21,283 nt of DNA from a virus, in UHGV virus genome UHGV-1980310; one strand, 5' to 3'. The notes beneath the pieces are model-generated. The model did no database searches. It was not told where the DNA came from and worked only from the letters and a program-made list of their open reading frames with translations. Positions 15,276 to 21,283 of this stretch are shown here, piece by piece. The translations under genes and the position numbers were made by a program. Each line of letters begins with the position of its first letter. The first letter of the stretch is position 1.

Positions 15276-15847
15276 ATGCTGATTGGGTATATCAGGGTGT
15301 CAACAAATGACCAGAATACGGCGCTACAAAGAAATGCGCTGGAATGTGCAGGATGTGAGCTGTTTTTCGAAGACAGAATAAGCGGTAAGACAAGGGAGCG
15401 TCCCGGACTTAAACGCGCATTAAAGCGACTCCGGCCAGGGGATACCCTGCTGGTCTGGAAACTGGATCGCCTTGGACGCAGTATGCAGCACCTTGTCCTT
15501 TTAACAGAAGAACTCCGGCAACGCGGCGTTAACTTCCGCAGCATTACGGACAATATTGATACATCCACTCCCATGGGACGTTTCTTTTCCATATAATGGG
15601 CGCGCTGGCGGAAATGGAGCGGGAACTCATTATTGAACGTACACGCGCGGGTCTTGCTGCTGCCCGTGCTCAGGGGCGTCATGGCGGCAGACCTCAGAAA
15701 CTGACAGAGAAAGAGCGGGAGCAAATCGCCCGTTTGCTGGCTAATGGCGAGTCCCGTAAACAAATCGCACTGATATTTGATATTGGCCTTTCCACCCTTT
15801 ATCGTTATTTTCCTGCCTCACCAGCTCCGTCACCAAAAGTACCGTGA
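15276..15847 (+). pseudogene. gin: Gin/Hin/Pin/Cin-family serine DNA invertase, disrupted by a 1-nt frameshift
   Basis: N-terminal ORF (15276-15596, catalytic motif GYIRVSTNDQ) ends ...MGRFFSI*; the next frame continues MGALAEMERELIIERTRAGL... through the C-terminal HTH. Invertases read ...GRFFFH(V/I)MGALAEMERE, so one T is missing from the T-run at 15585-15588. Confidence 0.8.
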
Positions 15848-15932: not shown

Positions 15933-17987
15933 ATGTCAGACTCCAAGTGGAAAATGCTCTCCGCCATGCCCGGAGAGTTTTCAGTCAAGGTTGCCGGTGG
16001 CACGGCGGCATTTATTGAAAGCCCTTTCCGCCCTTCGGGTAATAAAGGGGGGATCACCTTCGCAGACTGCGTGATCCGCTTCAGCACGAAAGAGCCATTA
16101 TGGGTAATGCCGGTATCCGGTAATCCCAGTGCAGAAATCACCAGTTCAGGCGTGACTGGCATCATTCCAATCACATCTGACGTGGCCGGAACGCTCACGC
16201 CCTCCGACTGGAATGCACCGGATAACGCCGGGCCTTCCGGTAGCACGAATGGCAGCAGTTCAGAGCCGGAATATTACTTTGTTGTCATTCTCGCGGGTCA
16301 GTCAAATGGCATGGCCTACGGCGAGGGGCTGCCGTTACCGGATTCGTTTGACCGCCCGGACCCACGCATTAAGCAACTGGCACGCCGCAGTACGGTAACG
16401 CCCAACGGTACGTCGTGTACATACAACGACATCATTCCGGCAGACCACTGCCTGCATGATGTTCAGGATATGAGCGGGATAAACCACCCGAAAGCTGATC
16501 TGGCAAAAGGCCAGTACGGGACTGTCGGTCAGGGGTTGCATATTGCCAAAAAACTGCTTCCCTATATCCCACAGAATGCCGGGATACTTCTGGTGCCCTG
16601 TTGTCGTGGCGGGTCAGCATTCACCACTGGAGCCGACGGCTCATTCAGTGAGGCCAGCGGTGCTTCCGCTGATTCTTCACGCTGGGGGGCCGGTAAACCT
16701 CTGTATCAGGACCTGGTAAGCCGCACCAAAGTCGCGCTGGCGAAAAACCCGAAAAACAAACTTCTGGCTGTGGTCTGGATGCAGGGAGAGGCAGACCTTG
16801 CCTCAGGAAGCCAGCAGCATAATAGTTTATTCACGGCCATGGTTCAGCAGTTCAGAACTGACCTGGCTCCGCTTGCTGCGCAGTGCGTGAGTGGAAATGC
16901 CACCACGGTGCCGTGGATTTGCGGTGATACCACGTATTACTGGAAAAACGCTGGCACCGATAAATATGAGGCAGTATACGGTGGCTACAAAGGCAAGGAA
17001 GCACAGAAAATTTTCTTTGTACCGTTCCTGACGGATGAGAATGGACAGAGCACGCCAACGAATGCTCCGGCGGAAGACCCGGATATTGTGGCTGTCGGGT
17101 ATTACGGTGCAGCATCCCGAACCCAGGGCAGTTTTGTTTCGACACAGCGTGACAGCCATTTCAGCTCATGGGCACGCAGGGGCGTCATTTCAGACCGTCT
17201 GGCCTCAGCTATTATGCTCCATGCAGGGCGCACGGCTGAACTGATGCGCGGGCAGACCGTGACACCACCGGATGAGAAGCCGTCACCTGATACACCATCA
17301 AAACCGTCCACGCCACCCGCAGACACCACGACGATGAGTACGCTATTTGCTTACCGGGCATCTGAGTCTGAAGGACGGTTGACACCACAGGGTTGGGCTG
17401 CCGGAGGTGGCAAGGCTCAAATCGTGGATGATGCCGGAGCCAGCGGGGGTAAGGCAATGAAACTGACCAAGGAAACAGGAAGAGCCCCCTGGTACCTTGA
17501 GCATGATGCTGGTAATGGTGCGGACCTGCTGGGTAAAGGTGGTCTTGTCAGTTGTCGTTTTAAACTCGATGGCGCGCTTACGGCTAATCAGTACGCACTG
17601 GCGCTGTACTGGCCGGTTTCTGCCCTGCCGCAAGGGGTTACTCTGGAAGGAAATGCCGGTCATAACCTGCTGGCATCGTTCTACGTACAGAGCGATGCCA
17701 CAGACCTTAACGTGATGTATCACAAAGGAAACACGGCGCAGAACACGAAGCTGGGGTCATTCGGCGCATTTAATAACGAATGGCATACGCTGGGCTTCCG
17801 TTTTGCCGGTAACAACAGTATTGAGGTGACGCCGGTCATTGATGGTAAGGACGGGACACCATTCATGCTGTCGCAGTCTCCGGTCGGCACGTTTACGGCA
17901 GACAAGTTGCGCGTGACCGATATCACTAAAAATGCGACTTACCCGGTACTGATTGACAGTATCGTGGTGGAAGTGAATAACGCGTAA
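15933..17987 (+). CDS. Putative SGNH/SASA-family O-acetylesterase (NanS-p-like) with a Pro/Thr-rich linker and C-terminal ~210-aa domain
   Basis: Motif VVILAGQSNGMAYGEG (nucleophile Ser, nt ~16296-16307) and downstream WMQGEAD match the sialate O-acetylesterase family. Linker PPDEKPSPDTPSKPSTPPADTTT at ~17265-17335 separates a C-terminal beta-rich domain. Confidence 0.6.
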   Translation: MSDSKWKMLSAMPGEFSVKVAGGTAAFIESPFRPSGNKGGITFADCVIRFSTKEPLWVMPVSGNPSAEITSSGVTGIIPITSDVAGTLTPSDWNAPDNAGPSGSTNGSSSEPEYYFVVILAGQSNGMAYGEGLPLPDSFDRPDPRIKQLARRSTVTPNGTSCTYNDIIPADHCLHDVQDMSGINHPKADLAKGQYGTVGQGLHIAKKLLPYIPQNAGILLVPCCRGGSAFTTGADGSFSEASGASADSSRWGAGKPLYQDLVSRTKVALAKNPKNKLLAVVWMQGEADLASGSQQHNSLFTAMVQQFRTDLAPLAAQCVSGNATTVPWICGDTTYYWKNAGTDKYEAVYGGYKGKEAQKIFFVPFLTDENGQSTPTNAPAEDPDIVAVGYYGAASRTQGSFVSTQRDSHFSSWARRGVISDRLASAIMLHAGRTAELMRGQTVTPPDEKPSPDTPSKPSTPPADTTTMSTLFAYRASESEGRLTPQGWAAGGGKAQIVDDAGASGGKAMKLTKETGRAPWYLEHDAGNGADLLGKGGLVSCRFKLDGALTANQYALALYWPVSALPQGVTLEGNAGHNLLASFYVQSDATDLNVMYHKGNTAQNTKLGSFGAFNNEWHTLGFRFAGNNSIEVTPVIDGKDGTPFMLSQSPVGTFTADKLRVTDITKNATYPVLIDSIVVEVNNA

Positions 17988-18002
17988 GCAGGATAAAAAA
18001 AT

Positions 18003-18035
18003 GCCGCCGGTAAGGGAAAACAAGAAACCGGCGGC
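18003..18035 (-). terminator. Rho-independent terminator-like hairpin (strongest on the minus strand)
   Basis: GCCGCCGGT-N15-ACCGGCGGC: 9-bp stem flanked by an A-run upstream, which is a U-run after the hairpin on the minus strand. Confidence 0.4.
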
Positions 18036-18131
18036 AAAAAGATCGTTATATCCAAAGCAAAAAATGCAGTGCACCTTTTTACCTAACAGATATTACCGGT
18101 GTCAACACCATGTCAATAATTGGGAGGGATA

Positions 18132-18314
18132 ATGACATTTTTACAGCTTATTTTATTGTATTTCTGCACGGCAGTATGTGCGTTATATCTGGTGAGTGGT
18201 GGTTATAAGGCCATCAGAAATTATGTTCGCCGCAAAATTGAGGACGCAGCAGCTGAAAAACTCAGTAAAACAGCGCAGGTAACTCCGCTCCCAAAAGACC
18301 CGACCCAGCCCTGA
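18132..18314 (+). CDS. Small single-pass membrane protein (~60 aa)
   Basis: GGGAGGG RBS before ATG 18132; hydrophobic helix TFLQLILLYFCTAVCALYLVSGGY followed by a basic tail. Confidence 0.4.
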   Translation: MTFLQLILLYFCTAVCALYLVSGGYKAIRNYVRRKIEDAAAEKLSKTAQVTPLPKDPTQP

Positions 18315-18349
18315 TTGCAGGGCTTTATTCCCGCATAAGGAGGATATAC

Positions 18350-18604
18350 ATGCCAGAAATTAAAGGCACCGTCACTGAAGACCTGGTAAAACAGGCACTG
18401 TATTCCGGTGAAGTAAATAAGTTGCTGAAAGCGCAGGTCCGCAAGGATTTTGAGGCACAAATCGACACTTACGTTGATGAAGTGCTGGCAAAACTTATTG
18501 GGCCAGCAGTTGCGGCCAGTGATGCTGATAATGAGCCGAAAACCGACGCGCAGCCAGAGCAACCAGACCCGGCTCAGCCCGGAACTGACAGTACCATGAT
18601 GTAA
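18350..18604 (+). CDS. Hypothetical acidic 84-aa protein
   Basis: Consensus AAGGAGG RBS 6 nt upstream of the ATG; followed by hairpins at 18611-18636 and 18662-18690. Confidence 0.5.
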   Translation: MPEIKGTVTEDLVKQALYSGEVNKLLKAQVRKDFEAQIDTYVDEVLAKLIGPAVAASDADNEPKTDAQPEQPDPAQPGTDSTMM

Positions 18605-18610
18605 CAATAC

Positions 18611-18690
18611 AAACCGGTGGTGTCCTCTGCCGGTTTGACACTAATGAAAACATCTTTGCCGCTATCCAGCCATATGTAATCGCTGGATAG
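18611..18690 (+). terminator. Two hairpins in the convergent intergenic region (candidate bidirectional terminators)
   Basis: AAACCGG-N12-CCGGTTT (18611-18636) and CTATCCAGC-N11-GCTGGATAG followed by TATTTCGTATT (18662-18690). Confidence 0.4.
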
Positions 18691-18771
18691 TATTTCGTAT
18701 TCAGAAATATAGCTGCTTATGGAGCAGTCAATCCTGCTTCCCCATCCGGGCAGGCAAATGAACCGGTATCA

Positions 18772-19065
18772 TTAGTCCGATTCACGCTTTTGTAGAATCG
18801 TTCCCAGAATGCTATACAGCTCATTAGCCTGTTGCTCCATCATTGAGACGGAGGCTATACGGTGCAAAGTGATTTCAGGAGGTGGCACACCTCCATCTTC
18901 TTGCTGTGGAGGAAAAACATAAGATTTAATAAAAAAGTTGAAGCATATGAACTCTCCCGCACTCGAACTGTATTTGCAGGCATCTGAATAATCGGAAAAA
19001 TAATCATTATAGATTTCCGCATTTTCAATCATTTTTCGATTTCTCGTCGTTACATGATTGTCCAT
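18772..19065 (-). CDS. Hypothetical 97-aa protein, opposite strand to the rest of the prophage
   Basis: AAGAGG RBS immediately upstream of the ATG; AT-rich promoter-like region at 19066-19200. Only clearly reverse-oriented gene inside the prophage. Confidence 0.5.
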   Translation of the reverse strand: MDNHVTTRNRKMIENAEIYNDYFSDYSDACKYSSSAGEFICFNFFIKSYVFPPQQEDGGVPPPEITLHRIASVSMMEQQANELYSILGTILQKRESD

Positions 19066-19184
19066 AGCAGCCTCTTACGCTGGCAATTAACCAATTGACT
19101 TCTATAAATTAGTTGATTTGTTTGCTTTGCGGTATTCAAATGTACAATCATTCAGCACTTATGCGTTACAGCACCGTTTAAAAT

Positions 19185-19282
19185 TAGTGATCAAACTCAT
19201 AAATTTTCGCTAATGACATTTCGTGTTATTTGTTGTATCAATTAAATAAATCAAATCGATCGTTTTTGTCGATCGATTGAGT
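19185..19282 (+). promoter_or_regulatory. Putative Dam-methylation-sensitive mom regulatory region
   Basis: Three GATC sites (19189, 19258, 19271) within ~85 bp upstream of com; the last two sit in a palindrome AATCGATCG-N7-CGATCGATT. Confidence 0.4.
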
Positions 19283-19321
19283 GATAAAGATATCAACAAC
19301 AAAGCAGGAGGTTATGCGGCC

Positions 19322-19522
19322 ATGTATCGAAACATACGGTGCCGACATTGTAACAAGCTACTGGCACGAGCCAGCTTCAGTTATCTGGAAGTTAAATGTC
19401 CGCGCTGTAAAACCCTCAATCAAATCACATCTCAGAGCGCCACAGAGCACCCCACATACACAAGGAAATCCTGTCGTGGGGAACAGAAAGCAAGTTACAT
19501 CCCGTATCATCAGCACGCCTGA
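19322..19522 (+). CDS. com: Com, zinc-finger translational activator of mom
   Basis: [10 protein letters not shown]...EVKCPRCK matches the Mu Com CxxC...CxxC zinc-binding pattern; ~66 aa; overlaps the 5' end of the mom frame as in Mu. Confidence 0.75.
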
Positions 19523-20213
19523 ACTTATTCACTATAACGACAATATCGTCGGTTATGGCTCCCGTGAGTTACGGGTTGAGACAATAAGTTGCTGGCTGGC
19601 CCGGCTGGTCGTCGTCAATAAACATTACAGCCATCGTTTCGTAAATAATTCCTACCTTCATCTGGGCATATTTTCAGAACGGGAGCTGGTTGGCGTAATG
19701 CAATGGGGTTATGCCCTTAATCCAAACAATGGTGCACGCGTCGTAACTGGCACGCAGAACCGCGAATATATGGAGCTTAACCGGTTATGGCTGCATGACT
19801 GTATGCCGAGAAACTCCGAATCAAGGGCAATCAGTTACGCGCTCAAACTAATCAGACAACTTTATCCGCAGGTGCAGTGGGTTCAGTCGTTTGCAGATGA
19901 GCGTTGTGGCTGTCTTGGTGTCGTGTACCAGGCAAGCAATTTTGATTATGTAGGCAGTCATGAAACAACATTCTATGAACTTGATGGCGAGTGGTATCAC
20001 GAGATTTGCAAGAATGCAATCAAACGAGGAGGACAGCGAGGTGAACATCTGCGGGCTAATATCGACAGAGCCAGTGTTCATAAATTCCGTCAGTTTCGTT
20101 ACATCCGGTTTCTGGACAAGAGAGCCAGAAAACGCCTTAACACAAAGCTATTCAAAGTCCAGCCTTACCCAAAACCACAAACAGTTAAAACTGGTTTGAA
20201 AGAGAGTGAATGA
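19476..20213 (+). CDS. mom: Mom-like DNA modification protein; start codon uncertain
   Basis: Long ORF overlapping the 3' end of com, last phage gene before the right end, ~237 aa from an in-frame GTG at 19476. The in-frame ATG at 19314 sits too close to the SD, and there is no other in-frame ATG before ~19700. Confidence 0.65.
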
Positions 20214-20333: not shown

Positions 20334-20336
20334 GCG

Positions 20337-20552
20337 CTATAACTGGCTGATGTTTTGCGCCAGCAACACGCCATCCAGCGACGGAATATTGATATCCAGA
20401 AAAATGGCGTCGACGCGGTTATGCTGCAAAAACTTCAACACGTCCAGACCGTCGTCAAAGGTGCCGACAATCTCCATCTGGCTGTGCTCTTTAATTAGCC
20501 AGCTCAGTTCCTGTTGTGCCAGGAATTCGTCTTCAACAATGATGACTTTCAC
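20337..20552 (-). pseudogene. ypdB: Host LytTR-type response regulator (ypdB-like), 5' fragment truncated by the prophage insertion
   Basis: Encodes (M)KVIIVEDEFLAQQELSWLIKEHSQMEIVGTFDDGLDVLKFLQHNRVDAIFLDINIPSLDGVLLAQNISQ then L*: the receiver domain is cut at ~residue 72. Identity as ypdB (versus paralogue yehT/btsR) is from memory. Confidence 0.6.
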
Positions 20553-20566
20553 AATATCACTCCGGC

Positions 20567-21283
20567 TCAAAGCAATAACGTAGCCTGTGAGGCGACTGGG
20601 GTGCGTTGGTTAGGAATGTAAAACGCAATTTCCGTCCCCGGCTCCAGGCGGCGGATATGCAGCCCCTCGCCATACAATAACTTCACGCGATGATGGACAT
20701 TCAGCAGGCCAATTTTATTGCCCGGCATTTCATTCGCTTCGACCCGCTCAATCACCTTTGGATCGATGCCGTGCCCGGTATCTCGCACCGCAATGCGTAC
20801 CCGATTTCCGCACTCTGCAACGCTGATGGTGACAACGCCTTTACCTTTGCAAGGCTGAATACCGTGGACAATGGCGTTCTCCACCAACGGCTGGATCAGC
20901 AGGCTGGGAATGCAGCAATTCACCTCTTCATCAATATCATAGATAACCGTCAGCTTGTCACCAAAGCGGGCCTGCTCAATGGCAATATAGTCTTTAATTT
21001 GATACAGCTCTTTTTTGATATCGATTTGCTCATCGTCTTTTAATTCAATGCTATAGCGCAGATAACGCGACAGATTAAAGATCAACTGGCGAGCGGTATC
21101 CGGATTCAGACGGATTGACGATGAAATAGCGTTCAGAGCGTTAAACAGAAAATGGGGATTAATTTTGCTTTGCAGGGCGCGAAGCTCTGCCTTATTTGCC
21201 ATTTCACGTAGCTGCTCGGCGCGTGAAACCTCCAGTTGCGTGGAGATGATTTGCGACAGACCGACCGCCATTTCCTGTAATGA
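20567..21283 (-). CDS. ypdA: Host LytS-type sensor histidine kinase (ypdA-like), 3' part; continues beyond the window
   Basis: Histidine kinase motifs [10 protein letters not shown] (H-box) and ATP-binding region ([23 protein letters not shown]); sits immediately upstream of the response-regulator fragment. Confidence 0.65.

What the first reader, a model, noticed from the sequence alone, without database searches (positions are those of the whole stretch)
18000..19200. Uncharacterised three-gene accessory cluster upstream of com
Strong ribosome-binding sites support a ~60-aa single-pass membrane protein and an 84-aa acidic protein on the plus strand, plus a convergent 97-aa protein on the minus strand with its own AT-rich promoter region, separated by hairpin terminators. 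None has a motif I recognise. Small membrane/soluble pairs and reverse-oriented genes in prophage accessory slots often encode superinfection exclusion, toxin-antitoxin or anti-defence functions.
Basis: inference. Interest (0 to 1): 0.55.

Follow-up and report, generated by a model that had tools for sequence, protein, structure and literature searches.

The report
Phage esterase cassette plus orphan gene
The three small ORFs are real genes but not one cluster: two are the conserved, still uncharacterised DUF1378/DUF826 companions of a phage sialate O-acetylesterase cassette, here carried by a Mu-like prophage with a probable small-RNA gene beside them, and the third is a rare orphan gene in a swap-prone cargo slot next to com-mom.

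Summary
All three ORFs, their Shine-Dalgarno sites, the hairpins and the AT-rich stretch are at the stated coordinates, and all three ORFs are under purifying selection.

The interpretation needs re-parsing.
- The 60-aa membrane protein is DUF1378 (PF07125) and the 84-aa acidic protein is DUF826 (PF05696).
- With the upstream 684-aa NanS-p-type esterase they form a cassette known from Stx/lambdoid prophages (Q-stx-nanS-p-DUF1378-DUF826-holin).
- Here the cassette lies between gin and com-mom of a Mu-like prophage, and the esterase carries a different N-terminal domain.
- The pair is never seen without the esterase. It occurs without a holin (Mu-like), and holins occur without it. So it is tied to the esterase, not to lysis.
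- The "terminator" after the esterase is probably the 3' end of a convergent PasA/PasC-like sRNA gene (about 17993-18075, minus strand).
- ORF97 is an E. coli/Shigella-only orphan. It lies in a 575-bp segment (18638-19212) that is replaced by at least four unrelated cargos in sister prophages.

No defence, toxin or structural homology was found, and function remains inferred. Overall this is mostly ordinary: known DUF families in a new context, plus one orphan.

The parts
15933..17987 (+). NanS-p-type sialate O-acetylesterase (684 aa), head of the cassette. Residues 1-110 (15933-16262) are a Mu-lineage-specific N-terminal domain that replaces DUF1737.
   Evidence: Pfam SASA plus DUF6645, no DUF1737. 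PDB: NanS 3pt5 1.8e-117 (aa 110-428) and NanS-p 6yp6 7e-98 (aa 469-683). The N-terminus matches only Mu-like prophages. DNA homology to lambdoid nanS-p starts at 16263.
17993..18075 (-). Candidate convergent small RNA of the PasA/PasC type: 10-bp GC-rich hairpin (18002-18036) followed by U7 (18001-17995) on the minus strand, 8 nt from the esterase stop codon.
   Evidence: Fold. Full-length but sub-threshold Esr41 match, 22.2 bits. A model built from E2348/69 PasA/PasC and relatives gives its best hit in 144 kb at 17989-18105, 22 bits, E 0.12. Its position matches PasC, which ends 1-2 nt from the esterase stop.
18076..18105 (-). Promoter-like motif for the candidate sRNA: TTGACA (18105-18100), 18-nt spacer, TAAAAA (18081-18076).
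   Evidence: The TTGAC-N17-20-TAAAAA arrangement is present in 23 of 29 distinct esterase-downstream sequences that are otherwise diverged. It aligns with the region upstream of the mapped PasA/PasC 5' ends.
18132..18314 (+). DUF1378 family protein, 60 aa: N-terminal transmembrane helix, basic cytoplasmic tail.
   Evidence: PF07125 1.2e-31, phrog_494 1.6e-32. Hydrophobic span 3-21, tail charge +3.8. dN/dS 0.14-0.32.
18350..18604 (+). DUF826 family protein, 84 aa: one long amphipathic helix, acidic disordered tail, conserved C-terminal Met-Met.
   Evidence: PF05696 6.4e-16, phrog_311 4.9e-28. AF2: helix 20-50 at pLDDT 80-93, residues 52-84 disordered. Alignment. dN/dS 0.09-0.22.
18610..18637 (.). 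Hairpin that closes the cassette; the last sequence shared with sister prophages before the variable slot.
   Evidence: Fold. Homology to L006, L007, L021 and L029 ends at 18636-18638.
18638..19212 (.). Variable cargo slot (575 bp here).
   Evidence: At least five unrelated fillings among 36 Mu-like loci. GC of the whole DUF826-to-com interval (which includes the slot) is 0.39-0.41. Boundaries come from pairwise BLAST.
18661..18691 (+). Hairpin followed by a U-rich tract on the plus strand, inside the cargo; terminator-like.
   Evidence: I3.
18772..19065 (-). ORF97: acidic 97-aa orphan protein (pI 4.7).
   Evidence: Only its own family among 5.8e9 and 1.84e9 proteins. One 29%-identical 98-aa relative in phage vB_EcoS-733R5. 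dN/dS 0.36. No family hit.
19213..19321 (+). Conserved com/mom upstream region with a GATC-containing palindrome (19254-19278).
   Evidence: 87-92% identical in all slot types. Palindrome (D3).
19322..19522 (+). com (66 aa).
   Evidence: PF10122 Zn_ribbon_Com 1.3e-12. PGAP annotation of homologues.
19476..20213 (+). mom (245 aa); the prophage right end follows at about 20336.
   Evidence: PF25680 Mom 1.6e-77. PGAP coordinates transferred from L006. Sequence.

Best explanation
The interval holds two independent things. (A) 17993-18637 is the tail of a mobile 'NanS-p esterase cassette': esterase gene, a convergent PasA/PasC-like sRNA gene, DUF1378 and DUF826. The cassette is known from Stx/lambdoid prophages, where it lies between Q/stx and the holin. 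Here it has been grafted into a Mu-like transposable prophage between gin and com-mom, with the junction at the esterase domain boundary, so the lambdoid capsid-binding DUF1737 domain is replaced by a Mu-lineage N-terminal domain. DUF1378 is a bitopic inner-membrane protein (N-out, C-in) with a basic cytoplasmic tail. DUF826 is a cytoplasmic acidic protein with one long amphipathic helix and a disordered acidic tail ending in Met-Met. Inferred mechanism: the two are made together, 35 nt apart with no terminator between them, alongside the signal-less virion-borne esterase. They form a membrane-tethered pair on the cytoplasmic face that serves the esterase (its handling, timing or release) rather than the lysis machinery. 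(B) 18638-19212 is a cargo slot. Here it carries ORF97, an orphan acidic protein transcribed away from com-mom, most likely a moron expressed on its own whose target is unknown. Shown: gene identities, synteny, co-occurrence, selection and slot variability. Inferred: the DUF1378-DUF826 interaction, their link to esterase function, transcription of the sRNA, and any function of ORF97.
For: Family membership. Cassette order with near-constant spacing in 8 lambdoid places, in VT2-Sakai, PhiR12_4 and AU6Stx1, and in all 36 Mu-like loci. Phage-database counts with almost identical organism breakdowns: DUF1378 in 309 records, DUF826 in 306 (+2), esterase C-domain in 342. The pair occurs without a holin in Mu-like phages. 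Closely related holins (80-92% identical to the VT2-Sakai S holin) occur without the pair in K-12 DLP12 and Qin, E2348/69 PP2 and Lambda_2B8. No case of the pair without the esterase was seen. Purifying selection. Charge complementarity and topology. DUF826 helix plus disordered tail. The N-terminal 47 aa of DUF826 is 97-100% conserved among lambdoids while the tail varies. Graft junction at 16263 and a 91-96% identical tract shared with a lambdoid prophage. sRNA: with PMC8550237 Table S6 and bioRxiv 10.64898/2026.05.13.724894. NanS-p as a capsid decoration protein anchored by DUF1737: bioRxiv 10.64898/2026.04.10.717836. Slot variability and orphan status of ORF97.
Against: No experiment or structure links DUF1378 or DUF826 to the esterase, and co-occurrence could be simple hitch-hiking in one DNA block. 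The esterase exists without the pair (E2348/69 PP2 and PP5, Lambda_2B8), so the pair is not essential to it. DUF1378 alleles are shuffled independently of their flanks (L016, L019, L020: esterase 100%, DUF1378 87-88%, DUF826 99-100%), which argues against tight co-evolution. The sRNA call rests on marginal scores (22 bits, E 0.02-0.18), and its -10-like hexamer TAAAAA lacks the usual final T. The ORF97 promoter is not supported above chance, and its AF2 model is unreliable (pLDDT 55).
Confidence: 0.55

Rival explanations
1. DUF1378 and DUF826 are lysis-timing accessories (holin or antiholin modulators) of the lambdoid lysis cassette, and merely hitch-hiked with the esterase into Mu-like phages.
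For: In every lambdoid locus they lie directly upstream of the class II (P21-type) holin with constant spacing. A small membrane protein plus a small cytoplasmic helical protein recalls the T4 RI/RIII antiholin pair (from memory, not tested).
Against: They are retained under purifying selection in 36 Mu-like loci with no holin nearby. Closely related holins (80-92% identical) work without them in DLP12, Qin, E2348/69 PP2 and Lambda_2B8. They have no similarity to any holin or antiholin family in Pfam or PHROGs.
Confidence: 0.2
2. One reading: the three ORFs are one accessory cluster that encodes superinfection exclusion, a toxin-antitoxin pair or an anti-defence function.
For: The proteins are small, include a membrane/soluble pair and a reverse-oriented gene, and sit next to the anti-restriction gene mom. 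ORF97 is acidic and lies in a low-GC swap-prone slot.
Against: ORF97 is exchanged independently of the pair. The pair is fixed to the esterase in two unrelated phage types. None of the three ORFs, nor any alternative cargo, hits PADLOC, and Pfam, PHROGs and NCBIfam give none of the three a family of known function. In lambdoids the pair lies in the Q-dependent late transcript, not in a lysogeny-expressed position (PMC4104026).
Confidence: 0.1
3. DUF1378 is a type I toxin-like membrane peptide controlled by the adjacent convergent sRNA.
For: It is a small hydrophobic peptide next to a candidate sRNA gene whose promoter lies in the DUF1378 5' region.
Against: The sRNA is transcribed away from DUF1378 and does not overlap its ribosome-binding site or ORF (coordinates). 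PasA and PasC exist without DUF1378 in E2348/69. Some cassettes (L037 and L039 types) have DUF1378 but no hairpin or promoter motif. DUF1378 also has a conserved 35-aa charged cytoplasmic tail, unlike pore-forming type I toxins.
Confidence: 0.05
4. One or more of the ORFs is a chance reading frame and not a gene.
For: The ORFs are short. ORF97 has almost no relatives.
Against: dN/dS is 0.09-0.36 against diverged copies. All three have strong Shine-Dalgarno sites. The two DUFs are conserved at 41-52% identity across phage types. ORF97 has a collinear 29%-identical homologue of equal length in an unrelated phage.
Confidence: 0.03

Closest known systems
nanS-p / DUF1378 / DUF826 block of Stx and other lambdoid prophages (e.g. 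VT2-Sakai orf42-orf43, 933W, AU6Stx1)
   Same: Same three protein families in the same order, with the same spacing (about 140 nt, then about 35-40 nt). The esterase catalytic and lectin domains are 54-68% identical, DUF1378 51-52% and DUF826 41-46%. The same hairpin and promoter-like motif follow the esterase.
   Different: The host element is a Mu-like transposable myovirus prophage, not a lambdoid. No Q, stx, STnc100/PasD or AsxR/AgvB upstream, and no holin downstream. The esterase lacks the DUF1737 capsid-binding domain and has a lineage-specific 110-aa N-terminus.
PasA/PasC sRNAs of EPEC E2348/69 (EcOnc51/52 in EHEC)
   Same: Minus-strand gene convergent with the esterase and immediately 3' of it. 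Length about 77-85 nt, with an intrinsic terminator whose T-run abuts the esterase stop and a TTGACA-type -35 motif.
   Different: The body sequence is diverged. The covariance model scores only 22 bits (E 0.12 over 144 kb). Expression and Hfq binding are unknown for this copy. It lies in a Mu-like prophage, a context the Pas survey does not mention (no occurrence of 'Mu-like').
Right end of phage Mu (gin - com - mom)
   Same: A gin homologue, com (PF10122), mom (PF25680) and a GATC-rich region upstream of com. The prophage ends about 125 nt after mom inside a disrupted host gene.
   Different: In Mu itself gin is directly followed by com-mom (from memory). Here about 3.4 kb of cassette plus cargo is inserted between them, and gin is frameshifted in this copy.
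T4 RI/RIII antiholin pair (functional analogy only)
   Same: A small membrane-anchored protein paired with a small helical cytoplasmic protein, both made late (from memory).
   Different: No sequence or profile similarity was detected. There is no holin partner in the Mu-like context.
Prophage moron and cargo hot spots
   Same: A low-GC interval (0.39-0.41 from the DUF826 stop to com) with fixed boundaries whose content differs among near-identical prophages; the cargo genes are often reverse-oriented.
   Different: None of the cargos matches a known defence or anti-defence family. No function has been assigned to any of them.

Membership tests
DUF1378 (PF07125 / phrog_494) | Profile score above the curated threshold over the full length | tested here: met
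   109.1 bits against a cut-off of 25, profile positions 1-58 of 59; phrog_494 1.6e-32.
DUF1378 (PF07125 / phrog_494) | About 60 aa with a single N-terminal hydrophobic helix, lying just downstream of a SASA esterase | tested here: met
   Hydrophobic span at residues 3-21; synteny.
DUF826 (PF05696 / phrog_311) | Profile score above the curated threshold | tested here: met
   58.7 bits against a cut-off of 25; phrog_311 4.9e-28 over the full length.
NanS-p phage sialate O-acetylesterase | SGNH/SASA catalytic domain plus C-terminal lectin-like DUF6645 domain | tested here: met
   PF03629 and PF20350; PDB 3pt5 1.8e-117 and 6yp6 7e-98.
NanS-p phage sialate O-acetylesterase | N-terminal DUF1737 (capsid-binding) domain | tested here: not met
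   No PF08410 hit, whereas the lambdoid homologues have one. Residues 1-110 match only Mu-like prophages.
NanS-p phage sialate O-acetylesterase | 9-O-acetyl sialate esterase activity; presence in the virion | not testable with these tools
   Needs an enzyme assay and virion proteomics.
PasA/PasC sRNA | Gene convergent with the prophage sialate esterase and immediately 3' of it, ending in an intrinsic terminator | tested here: met
   Hairpin 18002-18036 plus T7 on the minus strand, 8 nt from the stop codon. PasC coordinates are the same relative to its esterase.
PasA/PasC sRNA | Sequence and structure similarity to PasA/PasC | tested here: inconclusive
   The model from 4 Pas-type sequences gives its best hit at the expected place, but only 22 bits, E 0.12 (rough calibration).
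PasA/PasC sRNA | Transcript detected, Hfq-dependent | not testable with these tools
   No expression data for this prophage.
Esr41 (RF02676) | Rfam gathering score | tested here: not met
   22.2 bits against a gathering score of 102.
Known anti-phage defence or toxin-antitoxin systems (PADLOC-DB, Pfam, NCBIfam) | A significant profile match for any of the three proteins | tested here: not met
   No hit better than E 0.0076 (PbeC, 12.9 bits, partial).
Mu-like transposable prophage right end | com and mom genes at the end of the element, with Mu-type head and tail genes upstream | tested here: met
   PF10122 and PF25680. PGAP annotation of the matching prophage region in JE86-ST05 (the 1351-nt query is 100% identical): gpT major head, sheath, baseplate J.

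The most novel reading that the evidence does not exclude
DUF1378 and DUF826 are a dedicated two-protein device that travels with virion-decorating esterases. The membrane-anchored basic tail would dock the acidic helical adaptor, and together they would hold, time or release a signal-less enzyme that must end up outside the cell or on the virion. That would be a new class of phage accessory function. In parallel, the slot beside mom could be an anti-defence hot spot, with ORF97 as a new acidic anti-restriction-type protein.
Probability: 0.15. Interest if true: 0.6.

Novelty: new member of a known kind. Interest (0 to 1): 0.3.

Why it matters
DUF1378 and DUF826 lie beside Shiga toxin genes in hundreds of sequenced Stx phages (306-309 of 50,697 phage records) and have no assigned function. 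Their persistence with the esterase in a Mu-like phage that has no neighbouring holin gives a natural experiment: it separates 'esterase partner' from 'lysis partner' and makes the question testable by simple deletions. The same comparison shows that the esterase cassette, with its convergent Pas-type sRNA, moves between unrelated phage types by recombination at a domain boundary, swapping the virion-anchoring domain. The variable slot next to mom is a small, well-bounded place to look for new phage accessory genes. None of this is surprising to a phage genomicist, and no function has been shown.

Tried and rejected
(1) My recollection that K-12 ydfR is DUF826 and ybcW is DUF1378 was wrong. 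ydfR is DUF1327 and ybcW has no significant family.

(2) Searches of GTDB species representatives with DUF1378 and DUF826 patterns found nothing. This is uninformative beyond suggesting restriction to E. coli/Shigella, whose representative lacks the genes.

(3) Remote homology for ORF97:
- Pfam, PHROGs, PADLOC, NCBIfam and a PDB profile search gave nothing.
- A full HMMER scan of 1.84e9 representatives returned only its own family.
- IMG/VR and metagenome scans added only the 733R5-type relative.

(4) AF2 of ORF97 was too poor to use (pLDDT 55).

(5) AF2 of DUF826 gave a single helix. Foldseek against the PDB and BFVD found nothing significant.

(6) Literature searches for locus tags (ECs1208, Z1467, L0106/7), for ydfR/essQ and for 'NanS-p' with 'Mu-like' found nothing relevant. 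The only text on the DUFs is one sentence in PMC10462455.

(7) Rfam at gathering thresholds found nothing in the window, and ARAGORN found no tRNA.

(8) No repeats mark the slot boundaries.

(9) The promoter scan gave nothing above chance.
Full report
**Observation.** The three ORFs exist as described: 18132-18314 (+, 60 aa from the ATG), 18350-18604 (+, 84 aa) and 18772-19065 (-, 97 aa).
- Each has a good Shine-Dalgarno site (GGGAGGG, AAGGAGGA, AAGAGG) 5-6 nt before its ATG.
- The 60-aa protein has one hydrophobic span (residues 3-21) followed by a basic tail. The 84-aa protein is acidic (pI 4.2).
- Stable hairpins lie at 18002-18036, 18610-18637 and 18661-18691. GC drops to 0.30-0.34 upstream of ORF97.
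- Against diverged copies the ORFs show purifying selection: dN/dS 0.14-0.32, 0.09-0.22 and 0.36.
- The 97-aa start is right rather than PGAP's 86-aa call. The 79%-identical CI5 homologue conserves the N-terminus and has Thr at the internal Met.
- A promoter for ORF97 is not supported above chance.

**Setting.** The window is the right part of a Mu-like transposable prophage of E. coli.
- A 100% identical match to this stretch lies in a prophage whose PGAP annotation carries Mu-type head, sheath, baseplate and tail-fibre genes, gin, com and mom.
- com (19322-19522) and mom (19476-20213) match PF10122 and PF25680.
- The element ends near 20336 inside a two-component response-regulator gene.

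**Identity of the plus-strand pair.** The 60-aa protein is DUF1378 (PF07125, 1e-31; phrog_494). The 84-aa protein is DUF826 (PF05696, 6e-16; phrog_311).
- The gene just upstream (15933-17987) is a NanS-p-type sialate O-acetylesterase: SASA plus DUF6645 domains, PDB 3pt5 1.8e-117 and 6yp6 7e-98.
- The trio is a fixed block in Stx and other lambdoid prophages, in the order Q, moron (stx, methylase, AraC and so on), esterase, DUF1378, DUF826, holin. Spacing is nearly constant.
- The only text I found on the two DUFs is one sentence noting them between nanS-p and S (PMC10462455).
- In 36 E. coli Mu-like loci the same trio lies between gin and com.

**Does the pair belong to the esterase or to the holin?** In lambdoids this cannot be decided. 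The Mu-like context decides it.
- The pair stays with the esterase where no holin is near.
- Closely related holins (80-92% identical to the VT2-Sakai S holin) occur without the pair in K-12 DLP12 and Qin, in E2348/69 PP2 and in Lambda_2B8.
- I saw no case of the pair without an esterase.
- Phage-database counts agree: DUF1378 in 309 records, DUF826 in 306 (+2 Mu-type), esterase C-domain in 342, with nearly the same organism breakdown.
- The esterase can lack the pair (E2348/69 PP2 and PP5, Lambda_2B8), so the pair is accessory to it, not essential.

**How the cassette reached a Mu-like phage.** DNA homology to lambdoid cassettes begins exactly at 16263, codon 111 of the esterase, and runs to about 18190.
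- Residues 1-110 have no DUF1737 and match only Mu-like prophages.
- A recent preprint shows that in phi24B the esterase is a capsid-decorating protein anchored by DUF1737 (10.64898/2026.04.10.717836). The swapped N-terminus is therefore plausibly a different virion anchor. This is an inference.
- A tract at 16663-17162 is 91-96% identical to a lambdoid prophage, while the flanks are 60-80%. Esterase alleles in Mu-like phages range from 52 to 100% identity while com and mom stay at 94-100%. Exchange with lambdoids is therefore ongoing.

**The first 'terminator' is probably an sRNA gene.** The hairpin at 18002-18036 has its T-run on the minus strand (18001-17995), 8 nt from the esterase stop.
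- Upstream on the minus strand lies TTGACA-N18-TAAAAA (18105-18076).
- Hairpin plus T-run is present in 27 of 29 distinct esterase-downstream sequences, and the promoter-like motif in 23. The stem sequences differ but stay paired.
- Rfam gives a full-length but sub-threshold Esr41 match at 17993-18075, 22 bits against a gathering score of 102.
- Published data place PasA and PasC of EPEC E2348/69 on the minus strand between the esterase and the next gene. PasC ends 1-2 nt from the esterase stop. The EHEC homologues are EcOnc51/52 (PMC8550237 Table S6).
- The Pas survey describes pasA/pasC as flanked by the esterase and the holin/lysozyme genes. Convergent sRNAs at PR' moron sites were noted earlier (PMC4104026).
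- PasA and PasC align with the window element in the promoter, the 5' ACUGC and the terminator.
- A covariance model built only from four E2348/69 and 2B8 sequences puts its best hit in 144 kb at 17989-18105, but at 22 bits, E 0.12.
- I rate a transcribed Pas-like sRNA here at about 0.6-0.65. Family membership by sequence is inconclusive.
- The upstream lambdoid sRNAs (STnc100/PasD, AsxR/AgvB) are absent from Mu-like loci, as expected from the graft junction.

**Protein features and proposed mechanism.**
- DUF1378 has invariant residues in the helix (LYFC, SGGY) and in the tail (RR-I--AAEK) across phage types. By the positive-inside rule it lies N-out, C-in, with a tail charge of +3.8.
- DUF826 is predicted as a short helix, then a 31-residue helix (pLDDT 80-93), then a disordered acidic, Pro-rich tail ending in Met-Met or Met-Leu. 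Its N-terminal 47 aa are 97-100% conserved among lambdoids while the tail varies.
- The two genes are 35-40 nt apart in all contexts, with no hairpin between them.
- My best guess (about 0.3) is a membrane-tethered DUF1378-DUF826 complex on the cytoplasmic face, made with the esterase and acting on it.
- A role in lysis timing (about 0.2) and an unrelated passenger function remain open.
- No solved or predicted structure resembles DUF826.

**ORF97 and the slot.** ORF97 has only 14 near-identical clusters among 5.8e9 proteins and 3 among 1.84e9 representatives, all from E. coli or Shigella.
- It is present in 17 of 5426 complete E. coli genomes.
- One collinear 98-aa relative (29% identity) lies in an accessory region of phage vB_EcoS-733R5.
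- Sister prophages share sequence up to 18636-18638 and again from 19213. Between these points lie at least five unrelated fillings: ORF97; a 154-aa or split Zn-ribbon ORF; a 78-aa forward ORF with 68/99-aa reverse ORFs; a 175-aa Zn-ribbon membrane protein; or the 78-aa ORF alone. GC of the DUF826-to-com interval is 0.39-0.41.
- None matches PADLOC, and Pfam gives nothing beyond weak, sub-threshold zinc-ribbon hits.
- ORF97 is acidic (pI 4.7). Its AF2 model is unreliable. A moron function is plausible but untested.

**Verdict.** Two ORFs are new copies of known but uncharacterised families in a context not discussed in the literature I could search. The third is a true orphan in a cargo slot. 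Interest is modest (0.3).

Noticed in passing
window 15276-15596 (about 15585): gin (the DNA invertase) is a pseudogene in this copy. A single-base deletion relative to the otherwise identical prophage L001 truncates it to 106 aa. IMG/VR locus L017 shows the same truncated gin match in the tblastn table.
   Followed up: partly
window 15933-16262: The esterase N-terminal 110 aa replace the DUF1737 capsid-binding domain of lambdoid NanS-p. They have no relatives outside E. coli Mu-like prophages. This may be a different virion anchor.
   Followed up: partly
window 16663-17162: This tract is 91-96% identical to a lambdoid prophage esterase (L050), while the flanks are 60-80% identical. It points to recent gene conversion between Mu-like and lambdoid phages.
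   Followed up: partly
L003 7237-8289: In a Mu-like phage inserted into an Stx2c phage, com is followed by a 350-aa ORF that looks like a C5-cytosine methyltransferase instead of mom. tblastn with the window Mom found no match there. The methyltransferase label is from reading the sequence only.
   Followed up: no
L080 2460-2580 and 2608-2735 (minus strand): E2348/69 prophage PP2 carries two tandem Pas-type units (promoter motif, hairpin, T-run) between the esterase and the holin. This explains the published 236-nt minor PasA form, which ends at the esterase stop.
   Followed up: partly
window 19254-19278: A GATC-containing palindrome (AATCGATCG-N7-CGATCGATT) lies in the conserved 109 nt upstream of com. 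It probably corresponds to the Dam/OxyR control region of Mu Pmom (from memory), not to a terminator as the pattern scan scored it.
   Followed up: no
window 20337-21271 (minus strand): The prophage is inserted in a two-component system: a histidine-kinase ORF followed by a response-regulator ORF cut to 77 aa at the prophage end. From memory it resembles ypdA/ypdB; NCBIfam gave only weak BtsR-like hits.
   Followed up: partly
L002 4547-4966; L004 4721-5011; L001 20823-21083: Annotation problems in public records. VT2-Sakai orf43 (139 aa) is an over-extended ORF that hides DUF1378 and contains DUF826. The PhiR12 phages label DUF826 'head completion protein'. PGAP starts ORF97 11 codons too late.
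   Followed up: yes
L037, L039 (IMG/VR Mu-like loci): Two cassette variants, with esterase 53-55% identical to the window's, have a short 62-72-nt esterase-to-DUF1378 spacer with no hairpin or promoter motif. They are natural cassettes without the candidate sRNA.
   Followed up: no
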